Made by a program: the position numbers
Shown here: positions 27,001 to 34,899 of the stretch, one piece after another
Numbering within the stretch: the stretch's first letter is position 1
Layout of the letters: the number at the start of each line of letters is the position of its first letter
NCBI GenBank assembly: GCA_041586955.1
Contig: JBFGZE010000020.1
Span: 1 to 34,899 of the forward strand
Reading direction: 5' to 3'
From: Bacteriovoracaceae bacterium
GTDB taxonomy: Bacteria; Bdellovibrionota; Bacteriovoracia; Bacteriovoracales; Bacteriovoracaceae
DNA: 34,899 nucleotides

Positions 27001-30000
27001 AAGAAGTTCTCAAATTTAAAATCGCCCAGCTAATCAATCAAAATAATGCCTGTCCTATTTCCTATAAAGATTTGGACCTAAGTTTATTAATGCCAGAACT
27101 CACGCTTAAAAGTCCTATTATTGCCGGCAGCTGTTTTGGTAAGCCCTCGGCCCAGATTGCTTTTAAATCGCTTATTATTGCTCCCAGACCTCACCTTTCC
27201 CCACTGGGAATTAAGCTTAATATTCGCGGTGATGGCAGTGGTATCAAATTACGAGCATTTCCCCTAATTAGTAGTGATGTCGTCCGCCTTGCACTCAAGG
27301 ACACAATCATTAATGTTGAAAAGATCAAGGATATTATTAATATGCCCATAAAAATGGTGGGTGACGTCAAAGTTGATATTATCAACGCAGTTTTAAAAAA
27401 TGGCAAAATCACCCGTGGCCAATTTAAAATTGAATCCAATAATTTTGACATTAATGGCCAAAAAGTCCGTGGCCTCATCCTTCCTGCCTTTAATCTTAAA
27501 GGGATGAGTCTTAAGGCCGAATTAGTCGATAGTAAAAAGCTCATGATTAATCGTTTAGAACTTGGCAACAAAAAGTCGGATGTCTTCGTTCAATTAGAGG
27601 GTAATATTGCACTTCATCAAAATATGGCCGAAAGTAGACTCAACCTCCAAGGCAAGATCGGCCTAAGTTCTCAATTTGAGGAAAAAGTTCCTTTAATGCC
27701 TCTTTTACTCCCAGGAAAGAAACCTGTTGATGGTGCTTATGTTGTTAAAATCCAGGGAAAAATAGGAAAACCTCAATTCCAATAACGTCAATTCTCTATT
27801 ACAATGCCCGTCATGAAAGCAACGGCGACAAAAATAGAACCCCCAAAATATCAAGAGATCTTTGACCAGGCCTTGGCCCATTATTTGGCATTGGCCTGTC
27901 CCAAAGATTTCGCCTATGAAATGTATAGCTACGCTGTGCTCCCGGCCGGCAAATTATTCCGCCCCAGTTTAGCTCTGGCCATGGCCTTAGATAAGGGCCT
28001 TGATGCAACCACCATTCATCGTGACCATCCCTTAATAAAGGCCTGCTGCGCCCTTGAAATACACCACGCCTATACCTTGGTCCATGACGATCTTCCCTGC
28101 ATGGATGATGACGATATCCGCCGTGGTCGGCCCAGTCACCATAAAAAATTCAATGAATGGATGGCGGTACTAAGTGGTGATGGCCTATTGAATTTAAGCT
28201 ATGGCCTTCTTGCCGACTTACCGCCACAGGCATTGCCTCATTATTTAAAATACTTCTCTCATTGCCTTGGCCCGAAAGGCCTTATTCACGGCCAAGTCCT
28301 CGATCTAAAAGGGGCCAATCAATCCCATTCGATGGCGCATTGGGCGCGTATTCACCAATTAAAAACATCACGCTTAATTCAGGTATCCTTAATCTTAGGA
28401 CAAATTTTTGCGACGACAAGGCCCAGCTTCAATGAGCTCAAACTTACTCATCGCTTTGGCGCCAATTTGGGTTTAGTTTTTCAATTTGTGGATGACCTTA
28501 TTGAATTGGCCGAAGACCAGGTGCAAGGCCATGAATTAGAGATTAACCCCTGGATCATCTCACCCGATCGAACTCTCGCCTTCACACTTTCTAAACTTGA
28601 AAAGGTGATTGAAGAGTTAGGCCAAAGCCAATATTTAAAGGGAGTCATCGATCAATACTTCATTAAAATGAAATTAATTATCGATTCTGGTGAGGAAAGA
28701 ATTCAATCTTTTATGCCTGACCAAAGGAAATTAGAGATCAAGCCATTGGTGGCGCTCTTGGATCTCAGTGGTCAATGACATTAAGGTTTGAAGGTCCTTT
28801 TTGGCCATCTCTAACTTATTGAGATCATCACGACTTAGACCTTGCCTAATGATTTGCGGTAAGGAGTTAATTTCCTCTTCGTCATCATCATTATCCAAGT
28901 GGCCATAATTTTCATTGGCCGATAATAAAATTTTTATATCGGCCTTGGCCTTTTCAATATTAAGTTTATCTTCAAATAATAATTTTTTAATGACAGCAAC
29001 GGCCTCGATATCTTTATGTTCATAAAGCTTTTGGCCACTCGAAGAAGTGATAGGGTTAACCTCATCAAATTCTGCTTCCCAAAACCGTAGTACATACGGT
29101 TTTACTCCCGTTAAAGAACAAACTTCATTTAACTTAAAAAGAGATTTATTGGGGATTTCAATAAGACTGGCCATTCTATCTACCTTTACATATCAGAATC
29201 TAAATCTGATTCCTCTGAATTATTCATAAAAGAACTAAGAGCGCGTGAAGTTCCGTCCCGAGAAGGAATCGATGTATCTTCTTTCCCTTTATCATCTAAA
29301 CGGTGAGAATAGCGAACAGTAACATCTTCTTTTAAAACCTGAGACGGCTTGAAGGTTAAGACGCGACGAGCAGATATTTCCATAGCGTCACCTGTTTGAG
29401 GGTTTCTCCCCATTCGGGTGGCCTTGTCTCTGATAGAAAAATTTCCGAAACCAGAAATCTTTACTTTTTCGCCTCTAGCTAAAGTGTCTTTAATGACTTT
29501 GAAGACCATATCAACGAGGTCGGCTGCTTCTTTTTTAGAAAAACCAGCTTCCTTGTAGACTCTTTCAACAATATCGGCCTTTGTTAAACTCATAAATTTC
29601 CTCCATGAAATCCATAAACGTCAATTTATTTCCTAATATTGATAGGTTAGCAAAATATCCCTTCCGATGCTAGAAGAAATTTGTCGCTACTAAGATTTTA
29701 TGCGTCTTTTCTTAGTTTTTTTGCCAGGTTTTTGAATCTTTTTAAATAATTGATCTGTTTCCCTGTCTTTTTGCTTGAGCCAATCAGTCATATACTCTTT
29801 AACTTCCATCAACTCTTCAATCAATTTCTTAGACACTAACTTTTGAGAGCCAGCAACCTTTTTATATTCTTTTAATTTAATCGAATCTTCTTTGACCATC
29901 AGTTTACGTTTCGCTACTTCCTCTTTAGTCATGCGATAAATAGGCATATCAGCGAGATAATCACTGAAGAAATATTTTTTCTTAAGCAAGTACTCTACAT

Positions 30001-33000: not shown

Positions 33001-34899
33001 ACCGCCACAGTTCGCCCGTCATCTGATAAAGTGGTGTGAATTTCCGTGACGTGGCCACGATAATATTCATCAATACAATTATCGAGAATTTCCTCGATGG
33101 CCTTACTTTTCGCTTGGTGGAACTTCACCTGCTGAAAGGAAACGCCTTTATCAGTATAAAGATATGTGTCTAAATCTTCGATATCATTAGAACCAAAAAC
33201 CAAAGTGATGCGATTCCGGCAATGCCAGCGCTGATCCTTACTCTCAATAAGAGCATCTTTAGCTTTACCTTTCCTTTTTATCGATCCAACTGCCATAGAA
33301 ACTTCCCAGTCAAAGTTTGATTTGTTATTTTTGAAGGGACCATATAAATGTCTAAAATCAAGATTAAAGGGCCATTGGATTGGTGAAAAGGCGCAATGCA
33401 AAAAATACAATACTTTCTATTTATCAGTTTTTTCCCCTATTTACACCTCTCGGCAGGGGTTATTACCCCCTCCACCAAGGCCTTTGAGAGATTTGGTCCC
33501 GAGGCGAATCAGGCCATCTTGAGTGGTGAAATTTTTATTAATACACAAGTAAAAGACTTCGCTCAAAGCAAAGGACCTAAACAACAAACCCTTAATTTTC
33601 GCATTGGCGGCCTACATCCTCGCAATTGCCAGTCCGCGTTACGAAAGTTATCACAATACGAGAATTTCTCCAGATGGATTGGGTTTATTGATAAAAGTAC
33701 TTATGATGAAAAAAAGCAAAGGCCGACCTTCCATCTCAAAAGTAACCTCCTACCCTTTAATATGACCCTTGATTTTCATTTGCCCCGCATCCGGCAACCT
33801 GGTGTTTATGAGTTTCAATTTGACCGGGGGTTTTTATCAGGACTCAAGGGAAAAATCTATGTTCACTCTCATAAAAAGCGCTGCTTTTTTGAAAGTGAGG
33901 CCTATTGGCGTGGTCCCCACTCCAGTATCCCGAGCTCTGTTTTTGAATTCTTCTCTGATGCACTAGGTCGTCTCGCAATGGAAAACCTCTTCCGTATTTC
34001 ACGCTCTTAACAATAATGACAAAGGATGAGGGCCCATGTATAAGCTGCTTATATCGTTTTATACTCGGGAGGATTATGAAAGTTTTGAGAATCTCAGGAA
34101 ATGATACTCGGTCAATTCGCCACCAGGTCCTCAGACCTGACCTTGGAATAGACTCCTGTGTTTTTCCCCACGATGATGATGATCAGACATTCCATCTTGG
34201 TGCCTTTATCGATAATAAATTAGTTAGTATTGCCTCTTTTTATTTTGAGGTAAACGAGACTTTTGATGACGAAAACCAATACCGCCTACGAGGCATGGCC
34301 ACCTTGCCTGAATTCCGGCAAAAGGGTCTCTCTTCTGAATTATTAAAAATGGCCTTCCCCATTATCAAACAAAATTTTTGTACTTTATTATGGTGTAACG
34401 CCCGCACCTCAGCGAGCGGCTATTATCATAAGGTTGGATTTGAAAAAATTGGTGAAGAGTTTGATATTCCTGAGATTGGACCCCATATACTCATGTATAA
34501 ACCTATTATTTAGTCCCCTTATCACTCGGAAGGTTCAACATCTCAGTAGGCTGACAGAAGTATAAATTCTGGGGGTGATCCACCTGTTTTTGTTGCTCCT
34601 GCACACATTTCTCACTGGAAATAAAAGGCCTAAGAGGAGCACATTGCAGATTATCTTGCCCTTTTCTTTGTGCTTTTTCTCTCCACCCCCGGCATTTATC
34701 GGCACTATCTTTATTCACGCAAGCAAAGTGACTATGGCGGCAATCATAAATAAGGTAGGAACCCCGAATAAAATCCTTAGAAATAATCAATTCCACATCA
34801 TGCTGTAAGCGTATATCGGAATAGGCCTGGCCCTGCCCTGCGGTCAAGATCACAGTGAAAATAATGAGCATGGTAAATTTCTTCAGTTCCAATGGACTC

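What a model noticed while it worked through the whole genome (the two positions that open the first line are those of the whole stretch)
29690..33296. Phage T4-type topoisomerase II, not topo IV, is the second type II topoisomerase of this lineage
Besides gyrase (g02660/g02661 on C80) the genome has one more type IIA topoisomerase, the adjacent genes g01265 (B part, 715 aa) and g01264 (A part, 478 aa). Relatives' copies are annotated 'DNA gyrase subunit A/B', but it is neither gyrase nor topo IV: the A subunit lacks the C-terminal beta-pinwheel DNA-wrapping domain, and both subunits match the phage (T4 gp39-gp60/gp52) topoisomerase II families far better and over their whole length than any bacterial GyrA/ParC or GyrB/ParE model. 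The pair sits among housekeeping genes and is kept in every Bacteriovoracaceae genome sampled but in no other family of the phylum, so a virus-type topo II seems to be the chromosome decatenase of this histon [...]
Evidence so far: PHROGs: g01264 hits phrog_551 'DNA topoisomerase II' 355.7 bits, residues 10-460; g01265 hits phrog_543 'topoisomerase II large subunit' 472.4 bits, residues 8-660 = model 19-652 of 661. NCBIfam: best bacterial models give g01264 171 bits (cut-off 654) on residues 13-202 only, gyrA 138 (cut 877), parC 133.5/126 (cuts 629/813); g01265 gyrB 292 (cut 882), parE 228/208 (cuts 900/723). Pfam: one DNA_topoisoIV domain 33-439, no DNA_gyraseA_C repeats, against six in GyrA g02660. 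PDB: best chains are eukaryotic topo II (6ca8 131.9 bits, residues 17-459) and T4 gp52 (8ylu 115 bits, 13-417 = 7-418 of 452); most GyrA chains align only to residues 6-200. Swiss-Prot top five for g01264 are all eukaryoti [...]
(Added by a program. Inside this text positions count along the whole contig: contig position 1 is position 1 of the stretch shown here. "Call 12" and the like, gene names such as g00115 and contig names such as C1 are that model's own, and its searches are not shown. The text may have been shortened before it was handed on; [...] marks where a part breaks off. The agent that wrote the report below was given it as the finding of a first reader that could run no searches.)

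Follow-up and report, generated by a model that had tools for sequence, protein, structure and literature searches.

The report
Third kind of bacterial topoisomerase II
Two adjacent genes encode a complete type II DNA topoisomerase that is neither gyrase nor topoisomerase IV nor a T4-phage enzyme, but belongs to a separate, undescribed bacterial lineage shared with Leptospira, and it stands where related bacteria carry topoisomerase VI.

Summary
Window 31149-33296(-) encodes a 715-aa B subunit and 29690-31126(-) a 478-aa A subunit with no beta-pinwheel domain. All quoted scores reproduced, and the genome has only this pair plus gyrase.

Trees place both subunits outside the gyrase/topo IV clade (100/100 support), even with divergent PRK09631-type ParC/ParE added. 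An AU test rejects grouping with ParC (p 4e-6).

It is not T4-type. The A subunit lies outside all sampled phage, giant-virus and eukaryotic sequences (98/98), and AU rejects a T4 grouping (p 4e-4). The best viral relatives are only 27-36% identical.

Its nearest relatives are 456-480-aa A subunits conserved across Leptospira and Leptospiraceae (33% identity, full length), plus a small unnamed metagenomic group.

- **Family:** found in 58 of 61 Bacteriovoracaceae genomes, at a conserved chromosomal locus.
- **Phylum:** none of 165 genomes from 27 other families has it.
- **Topo VI-A:** 138 of those 165 have it; 0 of 36 Bacteriovoracaceae do.

This exclusive pattern supports a role as the lineage's non-gyrase relaxase/decatenase. 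Histone homologues are phylum-wide (166/201), so the histone link is not specific. No activity was tested.

The parts
31149..33296 (-). B subunit gene (715 aa): GHKL ATPase, transducer and Toprim domains plus a short GyrB_C-like segment
   Evidence: ORF and translation. Pfam PF02518, PF00204 and PF01751 above cut-off. phrog_543 472.4 bits. In the translation I see EGDSA, DSDVDG, QTK and LRGK-type motifs; the motif names are recalled, not from a call. 72-78% identical orthologs lie directly upstream of A in 8 of 8 family loci.
31152..31313 (-). Lys-rich low-complexity C-terminal tail of B (AKKVAKK-type repeats, about 55 aa)
   Evidence: translation. K+R is 34 of the last 90 residues here. Similar tails are strong in L030, L031 and L035, weaker in L034 and L032, and absent in L033, L036 and L037. 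They are absent from three phage B subunits (RsoM2USA, Rhizobium IC12, Chryseobacterium MA9V-1) and two GyrB sequences (E. coli and this genome's own).
29690..31126 (-). A subunit gene (478 aa): winged-helix domain with catalytic Arg120-Tyr121, tower and C-gate; no beta-pinwheel CTD
   Evidence: One PF00521 domain at 33-439 and no PF03989. R120 and Y121 are invariant in a 9-sequence alignment with Leptospira and P0146. 61-79% identical orthologs in 56 of 61 family genomes.
29693..29743 (-). Short basic C-terminal tail of A (KKIQKPGKKTKKRRIKS)
   Evidence: K+R is 13-19 of the last 45 residues in 8 of 8 family orthologs, against 8 in T4 gp52 and 4 in RsoM2USA.
29186..29593 (-). IHF/HU-family gene directly downstream on the same strand (context; possibly co-transcribed)
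   Evidence: PF00216 107.8 bits. The B-A-IHF-MerR order is kept in 5 of 8 family loci.
28731..29174 (-). MerR-family regulator gene following the IHF-like gene (context)
   Evidence: PF13411 47.7 bits. Synteny in 5 of 8 family loci.

Best explanation
The two genes encode the B and A subunits of an active, ATP-dependent type IIA topoisomerase, presumably an A2B2 enzyme. It belongs to a third cellular lineage, distinct from the gyrase/topo IV clade and from the phage/giant-virus/eukaryote clade. The A subunit of this lineage is shared with Leptospiraceae and a small unnamed metagenomic group.

Without the DNA-wrapping beta-pinwheel domain it cannot supercoil as gyrase does. It most likely relaxes supercoils and unlinks daughter chromosomes by plain strand passage, as T4, ASFV and eukaryotic core enzymes do. 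Lysine-rich disordered tails probably give unspecific DNA affinity in place of a CTD.

In Bacteriovoracaceae it fills the slot that topo VI fills in most other Bdellovibrionota.

Shown: gene integrity, conservation, architecture, tree position, distribution. Inferred: activity, decatenase role, tail function.
For: - **Catalytic parts intact.** Pfam domains; R120-Y121 invariant; Toprim and ATPase motifs visible.
- **Strong conservation.** A is 61-79% identical across 56 of 61 family genomes of about 60 genera. 79 of 79 sampled family genomes besides the window's own have it in the class search.
- **Stable locus.** orf204-B-A is kept in 8 of 8 loci and B-A-IHF-MerR-polyprenyl synthase in 5 of 8. 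There are no phage genes nearby.
- **A trees.** The GyrA/ParC clade is 100/100 with a stem of 1.1. Bacteriovoracaceae + Leptospira + P0146 is 96/90. All 39 phage and fused sequences are 98/98 (74 rows, LG+C20).
- **Same split with more rows.** It holds with PRK09631-type ParC and more Leptospiraceae rows added: 100/99, 96/89, 100/97.
- **B trees.** Bacteriovoracaceae B lies outside GyrB/ParE at 100/100 and 100/99 with divergent ParE added.
- **AU tests.** With ParC, delta lnL 156, p 4.4e-6. With T4-like, delta lnL 67.6, p 4.3e-4.
- **Leptospira relatives.** 33% identity over 441 aa. Orthologs run throughout the genus and family, all 456-480 aa with PF00521 only. The reciprocal search from P0146 returns Leptospiraceae, then Bacteriovoracaceae.
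- **Complementary distribution.** Topo VI-A is in 138 of 165 non-family genomes and 0 of 36 family genomes. This enzyme is in 36 of 36 against 0 of 165. Most other families have a single GyrA-like and GyrB-like gene.
Against: - No activity, expression or essentiality data exist. No RNA run was listed.
- One 98%-complete family genome (G021) shows neither this enzyme nor topo VI nor a second GyrA/GyrB. The enzyme may therefore be dispensable, or that assembly has a gap.
- The complementary pattern is essentially one evolutionary event, so it carries little statistical weight.
- The position of the B subunit relative to phage groups is unstable. It sits next to the bacterial stem at 96/87, and weakly (66/45) with a Rhizobium-phage group.
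- Long stems (about 1.1-1.5) leave room for long-branch effects.
- The AU groups were named after the tree had been seen, and the tests used LG+G4 on 40 rows.
- The Leptospira B partner was not retrieved, so the shared lineage is shown for A only.
- Bacteroidota, Borrelia and Chlamydia ParC are represented only by three unnamed PRK09631-type metagenomic sequences.
Confidence: 0.6

Rival explanations
1. Ancient capture from a virus. The pair descends from a topoisomerase II of an unsampled phage lineage, taken up by an ancestor of Bacteriovoracaceae (and separately or jointly by Leptospiraceae), and now serves the host.
For: - The CTD-less two-subunit architecture and B-then-A gene order match several non-T4 phages: RsoM2USA, Chryseobacterium MA9V-1 and Rhizobium IC12.
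- The best profile hits are PHROG families.
- In the A tree the clade's node lies much nearer the viral group (0.25 + 0.34) than the GyrA/ParC crown (0.22 + 1.1).
- In one search the B subunit sits weakly with a phage group.
- Sister families of the phylum lack it, so it was gained.
- Guglielmini et al. 2022 (passages read) already find the bacterial clade nested among Caudoviricetes.
Against: - No viral sequence lies inside or next to the clade among 6 named phages and the 35 unnamed representatives in the 74-row A tree.
- The best viral identity is 27-36%.
- The direction of transfer cannot be read from an unrooted tree.
Confidence: 0.25
2. A fast-evolving topo IV. ParC/ParE lost the CTD and diverged so far that trees pull it towards the long viral branches.
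For: - Gram-positive ParC chains align over the whole A core with scores equal to T4 gp52: 2inr 114.9 against 8ylu 115.0.
- The best PDB hits of B are ParE and GyrB.
- ParC models NF007209 and NF009397 align full length.
- The language-model lookup for B pointed to Bacteroidota ParE clusters.
- One family of the phylum (f2) does have a canonical second pair.
Against: - The GyrA/ParC and GyrB/ParE clades exclude it at 100/100 under a site-heterogeneous model, even with PRK09631-type ParC/ParE added.
- AU rejects a ParC grouping at p 4.4e-6.
- Ordinary GyrA (213-266 bits) and ParC (188-229 bits) score higher on NF007209 and NF009397 than this protein does (149 and 134).
- All NCBIfam ParC/ParE cut-offs are missed by a factor of 3-6.
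Confidence: 0.08
3. Not a housekeeping enzyme. It is a specialised or accessory topoisomerase, for example for the multi-chromosome filament stage of predatory growth, for handling prey DNA, or a domesticated remnant of a mobile element.
For: - Bacteriovoracaceae are predators.
- One near-complete family genome seems to lack it.
- The Lys-rich B tail varies between genera.
Against: - The same lineage of A subunit is conserved in non-predatory Leptospiraceae.
- The locus is syntenic among housekeeping genes, with no mobile-element genes seen.
- There is no other second type II topoisomerase in these genomes.
Confidence: 0.07

Closest known systems
Phage T4/T6 topoisomerase II (gp39[-gp60] + gp52; PDB 8ylu, 8yo3)
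   Same: Separate B and A subunits, no C-terminal DNA-wrapping domain, the same catalytic domains, and full-length alignment (115 bits for A, 150 for B). Expected chemistry is ATP-dependent strand passage without supercoiling.
   Different: It is not in the T4-like clade; AU gives p 4.3e-4 and T4 is nested deep in the viral group. Identity is only about 28%. It is chromosomal and vertically inherited. It has basic tails that the two phage A subunits (T4 gp52, RsoM2USA) and three phage B subunits examined lack.
Bacterial topoisomerase IV (ParC/ParE)
   Same: Two-subunit second type IIA enzyme of a bacterium, adjacent genes, and the presumed decatenase/relaxase role. B scores best against ParE and GyrB chains.
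   Different: No beta-pinwheel CTD. It lies outside the GyrA/ParC and GyrB/ParE clades and is rejected by AU. It falls far below every NCBIfam cut-off.
Leptospira 'DNA gyrase subunit A' of 462 aa (e.g. WP_046690717.1), uncharacterised
   Same: The closest relative found: 33% identity over 441 aa, the same length, PF00521 only, and the same clade at 96/90 and 96/89.
   Different: A different phylum. The basic C-terminal tail is absent in P0129. Its B partner and function are unknown. I found no paper describing it (searches; listings only).
Topoisomerase VI of other Bdellovibrionota (type IIB; reported for Bdellovibrio bacteriovorus in PMC11302465, passages read)
   Same: It occupies the same genomic 'slot', the only non-gyrase type II topoisomerase, in a mutually exclusive pattern.
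   Different: The A subunit is unrelated (Spo11-like) and the enzyme is type IIB.
Eukaryotic / giant-virus topoisomerase II
   Same: The top PDB and representative hits of A include eukaryotic Top2 (6ca8 131.9 bits; P0133). Charged disordered tails take the place of a folded CTD.
   Different: Those are single fused B-A chains of 1000-1900 aa, in a clade separated by a 98/98 branch.
Mycobacterium smegmatis TopoNM (atypical extra type II topoisomerase)
   Same: A precedent for a bacterium carrying an additional, non-gyrase, non-topo IV type IIA enzyme. It is known to me only from reference lists.
   Different: No sequence was compared here. The relationship is untested.

Membership tests
Type IIA topoisomerase (general) | A subunit with a winged-helix domain bearing the catalytic Arg-Tyr | tested here: met
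   PF00521 284.7 bits. R120 and Y121 are invariant in the alignment.
Type IIA topoisomerase (general) | B subunit with GHKL ATPase, transducer and Toprim domains | tested here: met
   PF02518, PF00204 and PF01751 are above their cut-offs. The acidic Toprim motifs are visible; the motif names are recalled.
DNA gyrase | GyrA C-terminal beta-pinwheel (PF03989 repeats) with a GyrA box | tested here: not met
   No PF03989 hit and the protein ends about 40 aa after the core. Own GyrA has 5 repeats.
DNA gyrase | Membership of the GyrA/GyrB clades and NCBIfam equivalog cut-offs | tested here: not met
   gyrA scores 138 against a cut-off of 877, and gyrB 292 against 882. Both lie outside the clades.
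Topoisomerase IV | ParC C-terminal domain (degenerate beta-pinwheel) | tested here: not met
   No domain follows residue 439. One caveat: the PRK09631-type ParC L232 also shows no PF03989 hit, although it has about 200 extra residues.
Topoisomerase IV | Phylogenetic placement with ParC/ParE | tested here: not met
   Excluded at 100/100 and at 100/99. AU p 4.4e-6.
T4-type phage topoisomerase II | Separate subunits and no CTD | tested here: met
T4-type phage topoisomerase II | Placement within the Caudoviricetes topo II clades | tested here: not met
   A is separated from all phage rows by 98/98 and 100/97. AU against T4-like gives p 4.3e-4. B is inconclusive relative to one phage group (66/45).
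T4-type phage topoisomerase II | Encoded in a viral genome or prophage | tested here: not met
   Conserved chromosomal synteny with housekeeping genes. No close match in phage records or IMG/VR.
Eukaryotic-type topoisomerase II | Single fused B-A polypeptide | tested here: not met
   Two ORFs separated by 22 bases.
Functional decatenase/relaxase | ATP-dependent relaxation and decatenation, no supercoiling | not testable with these tools
   Inferred from the architecture and the complementary distribution with topo VI.

The most novel reading that the evidence does not exclude
An ancient, cellular, CTD-less type IIA topoisomerase lineage exists beside gyrase/topo IV. It branches at the junction between the bacterial and the viral/eukaryotic enzymes. 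It is retained only in bacteria whose chromosomes are packaged by face-to-face histones (Bacteriovoracaceae, Leptospiraceae). There it works on histone-bound DNA as eukaryotic topo II does, with lysine-rich tails playing the part of the eukaryotic CTD. If true, it would be a bacterial analogue of the histone plus topo II pairing, and a new anchor for rooting the type IIA tree.
Probability: 0.15. Interest if true: 0.85.

Novelty: new variant of a known kind. Interest (0 to 1): 0.66.

Why it matters
- **Textbook view.** Textbooks and the phylogenomic surveys I read in passages (PMC2647321, PMC9752973, PMC11461880) list only gyrase and topo IV as bacterial type IIA enzymes, with the CTD-less form confined to viruses. 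A conserved cellular CTD-less lineage in two phyla, one holding the leptospirosis agents, adds a third kind.
- **Annotation.** Thousands of database entries call these proteins 'DNA gyrase subunit A/B'. That name is wrong.
- **Origins.** The lineage gives a new deep branch for the debate on whether bacterial and eukaryotic type IIA enzymes came from viruses.
- **Non-orthologous displacement.** Within one phylum, topo VI, this enzyme and a canonical second pair replace one another.
- **Drug target.** The quinolone-binding positions differ from those of GyrA (HPHGPASIET; the numbering comparison is recalled). This bears on how such drugs act in these bacteria.
- **Testable question.** It makes it possible to ask what kind of topoisomerase serves histone-packaged bacterial chromosomes.

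Tried and rejected
- **AU test on the 74-row PMSF alignment.** It never finished. I replaced it with a 40-row LG+G4 set.
- **Metagenome scan for Leptospiraceae-type loci,** to get the B partner and its context. Its one use was to supply three PRK09631-type ParC loci.
- **Genome-contig scan.** I spent it on a ParC/GyrA sample for the tree, so no Leptospira genome handle could be obtained.
- **PF00808 search** did not detect the genome's histone at E <= 0.001. A relaxed search found it.
- **Sequencing-run lookup** listed no RNA holder, and no reads were laid.
- **Language-model lookups.** P0146 gave no taxon. B pointed to Bacteroidota ParE clusters, a lead that the B tree with divergent ParE did not bear out.
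- **Idea that the Leptospira protein was a strain-specific prophage gene** (one-member cluster). One search rejected it.
- **Idea of special kinship to the divergent ParC models** NF007209 and NF009397. Rejected by the score comparison and the tree.
- **Not run:** structure prediction, complex prediction and fold search. The fold is not in doubt, and a pass for a textbook pair would add little.
- **Literature.** Seven full-text searches and term look-ups in eight papers found no description of this enzyme in Bacteriovorax, Halobacteriovorax or Leptospira. Supplementary trees of PMC11461880 and tables of PMC9752973 were not opened and could hold such sequences.

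
Full report
**What is there.**
On the minus strand lie two ORFs 22 bases apart. B is 31149-33296 (715 aa from the ATG; the frame stays open to a TTG at 33410). A is 29690-31126 (478 aa).

A has one DNA_topoisoIV domain (33-439, 284.7 bits) and nothing else. B has the HATPase_c, DNA_gyraseB and Toprim domains.

Two omissions matter:
- Two ParC models align over the whole A core: NF007209 149.5 bits and NF009397 134.4 bits.
- A Gram-positive ParC chain (2inr, 114.9 bits over residues 10-445) scores the same as T4 gp52 (8ylu, 115.0).

The genome (88% complete, 194 contigs) has just two A-type and two B-type places, gyrase on C80 and this pair. 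Its GyrA carries five PF03989 repeats above threshold.

**Is it a working gene pair?**
The Arg120-Tyr121 catalytic dyad is invariant in an alignment with distant relatives. The acidic Toprim motifs and the ATPase-lid region are visible in the translation (motif names recalled).

A full-length A ortholog of 61-79% identity was found in 56 of 61 genomes of the family, which span about 60 genera. In two more genomes the locus is cut by a contig end (G022, G052). In three it was not found: G021 (98% complete), G039 (91%) and G002 (75%).

A second sample of the class gave 79 of 79 family genomes, and 0 of 1 for the only other family.

In eight 20-kb loci B always lies directly upstream of A. orf204-B-A is kept in 8 of 8 loci, and B-A-IHF-MerR-polyprenyl synthase-...-PilM-like in 5 of 8. 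The window's neighbours are type II secretion genes, an IHF/HU gene, a MerR regulator and a GNAT gene, with no phage genes.

This is a vertically inherited chromosomal locus under purifying selection.

**Not gyrase, not topo IV.**
I built trees of the A core from:
- family members;
- the best 50%-identity cluster representatives of a 1.84-billion-protein search;
- six named phages;
- E. coli GyrA and ParC;
- GyrA of six other Bdellovibrionota families;
- the second paralog of family f2;
- ParC of Gamma- and Alphaproteobacteria and Bacillota, and GyrA of several phyla (labels checked with NCBIfam).

In the careful tree (74 rows, 460 columns, LG+C20 PMSF) GyrA and ParC form one clade at 100/100 with a stem of 1.1. 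The family lies outside it.

An AU test on a 40-row set rejects a clade of the family with ParC-like rows (delta lnL 156, p 4.4e-6).

A language-model lookup hinted at Bacteroidota ParE. I therefore added three PRK09631/PRK12758-type divergent ParC sequences and two ParE sequences recovered from metagenome contigs. They join the bacterial clade (100/99), and the family stays outside (A, B).

Ordinary GyrA scores 213-266 bits and ParC 188-229 bits on NF007209 and NF009397. This protein scores 149 and 134. The full-length alignments to those models therefore show no special kinship.

**Not T4-type either.**
In the same trees all phage, fused and eukaryotic sequences form one side of a 98/98 branch or a 100/97 branch. 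T4 gp52 is nested deep inside that side. AU rejects a clade of the family with the T4-like group (delta lnL 67.6, p 4.3e-4; the group was named after the tree had been seen).

The best phage matches among 50,697 records are 28-32% identical. The best of 2.9 million IMG/VR contigs are 27-36% identical.

For B the picture is less sharp. It lies outside GyrB/ParE at 100/100 or 100/99. It attaches next to the bacterial stem in one tree (96/87) and weakly to a Rhizobium-phage group in the other (66/45).

So a viral origin remains possible but is not shown, and 'T4-type' is wrong as a statement of descent. As a statement of architecture it is apt: two subunits and no wrapping domain.

**The nearest relatives are cellular.**
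The best hit outside the family is a 462-aa Leptospira santarosai protein (244 bits; 33% identity over 441 aa).

It is not a strain oddity:
- orthologs of 95-100% identity occur in L. interrogans, kirschneri, mayottensis, alstonii and weilii;
- orthologs of 85-87% occur in L. inadai, wolffii and fluminis;
- orthologs of 58-80% occur in Leptospiraceae and Spirochaetota MAGs.

Those near full length are about 450-490 aa, all carry PF00521 only, and all are labelled 'DNA gyrase subunit A'.

A third small group (P0146 and four relatives, 543-677 aa, unnamed) has Leptospiraceae and then Bacteriovoracaceae as its best outside hits.

The three groups form a clade at 96/90 and 96/89. I could not retrieve the Leptospira B partner, so this shared lineage is shown for A only.

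**What it probably does.**
Within the phylum, 165 genomes of 27 other families lack the enzyme. Most show a single GyrA-like gene, and two complete genomes checked show a single GyrB-like gene. These families are not 'gyrase only':
- Topo VI-A (PF04406) is present in 138 of the 165 genomes, for example f8 20/20, f5 31/32 and f10 14/14.
- It is present in 0 of 36 Bacteriovoracaceae.
- It is also absent from the five family genomes in which no full-length A ortholog was found.
- Family f2 lacks both and has a canonical second GyrA/GyrB-like pair.

Allen et al. 2024 (PMC11302465, passages read) report topo VI and no topo IV in Bdellovibrio bacteriovorus.

The mutually exclusive pattern fits non-orthologous displacement in one functional slot, the non-gyrase relaxase/decatenase. 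It is one event, not many, so it is suggestive rather than statistical.

Without a wrapping domain the enzyme should relax and decatenate but not supercoil. That follows from established knowledge of the GyrA CTD and from the T4/T6 work (PMC11461880, passages read).

Lineage-specific basic tails may supply DNA affinity. These are a short tail on A in 8 of 8 orthologs and a long AKK-repeat tail on B in about 5-6 of 9. Their function is an inference.

**Histones.**
I located it at G000:C79:9576-9758 and found a paralog inside the window.

Homologues occur in 166 of 201 genomes and 23 of 28 families of the phylum, including all 20 genomes of f8, which have topo VI instead. Histones as such therefore do not call for this enzyme.

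Hu et al. [quoted passage not shown] That is a striking but two-point correlation. My search could not separate histone subtypes.

**Prior knowledge.**
None of the papers I looked into mentions this enzyme:
- term look-ups in PMC9752973, PMC11461880, PMC2647321, PMC11302465, PMC12701072, PMC11789641 and PMC12642874;
- listings of seven full-text searches.

Supplements were not opened.

**Verdict.**
This is a real, conserved gene pair. It is correctly recognised as neither gyrase nor topo IV, and wrongly assigned to T4-type phage enzymes. It is best read as a third cellular type IIA lineage shared with Leptospiraceae, standing in for topo VI.

Noticed in passing
window 9439-9753 (-): A second histone-fold gene, 77% identical to the genome's 61-aa histone on contig C79. 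This copy has an N-terminal Lys-rich extension (AKKKATKKIAKKSTKK), reminiscent of the tail on the topoisomerase B subunit 20 kb away.
   Followed up: partly
G159:C1:162749-164112; G233:C45:1264-3499; G212:C1:105256-107831; G120:C22:20753-21876; G199:C6:145807-147394; G164:C26:4476-9289; G191:C19:68833-72457: In seven genomes of five other Bdellovibrionota families the histone homolog lies 0.7-4.4 kb from the topo VI-A gene, by the coordinates. This is a possible conserved histone-topoisomerase linkage. The intervening genes were not examined.
   Followed up: partly
L021:285-2618 (-), L022:607-2916 (-), L217 (G101:C67): Family f2 (1.3-1.7 Mb genomes) has a canonical second GyrA-like gene (770-778 aa, NF004044 717-725 bits, one PF03989 repeat) next to a second GyrB-like gene (850 aa). 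It has no topo VI-A (0/9) and no histone homolog (0/9).
   Followed up: partly
L023:2678-5944 (+) (G168:C4): One f14 genome carries, besides topo VI and gyrase, a fused 1089-aa B-A topoisomerase II. It falls among the fused giant-virus/eukaryote-like sequences in the trees. Its origin (virus, contaminant or transfer) was not examined.
   Followed up: no
G021 (family genome, 98% complete, 30 contigs): No ortholog of A or B, no topo VI-A and only one GyrA/GyrB were found. It is apparently a gyrase-only member of the family, or the assembly has a gap.
   Followed up: partly
P0163 (481 aa, 2.4-kb metagenomic contig): A CTD-less A subunit that branches at the base of the GyrA/ParC crown (100/100; 95/78 inside the bacterial clade). 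PF00521 only.
   Followed up: no
L232:3707-7929, L241:3933-7938, L237:3-2866: PRK09631/PRK12758-type divergent ParC with an adjacent upstream ParE in 54-60% GC metagenome contigs. L232, the one ParC scanned with Pfam, shows no PF03989 hit despite about 200 residues after the core.
   Followed up: partly
window 15258-26226 (+): A type II secretion / pilus-like cluster: secretin, T2SS E and F, a G-type pseudopilin, three N-methyl-motif proteins and a PilM-like protein.
   Followed up: no
window 29690-31126 (-), residues 75-84 of A: The region matching the quinolone-resistance-determining stretch of GyrA reads HPHGPASIET. By recalled E. coli numbering, Ala and Thr stand where Ser83 and Asp87 would be. 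The family alignment keeps this.
   Followed up: no
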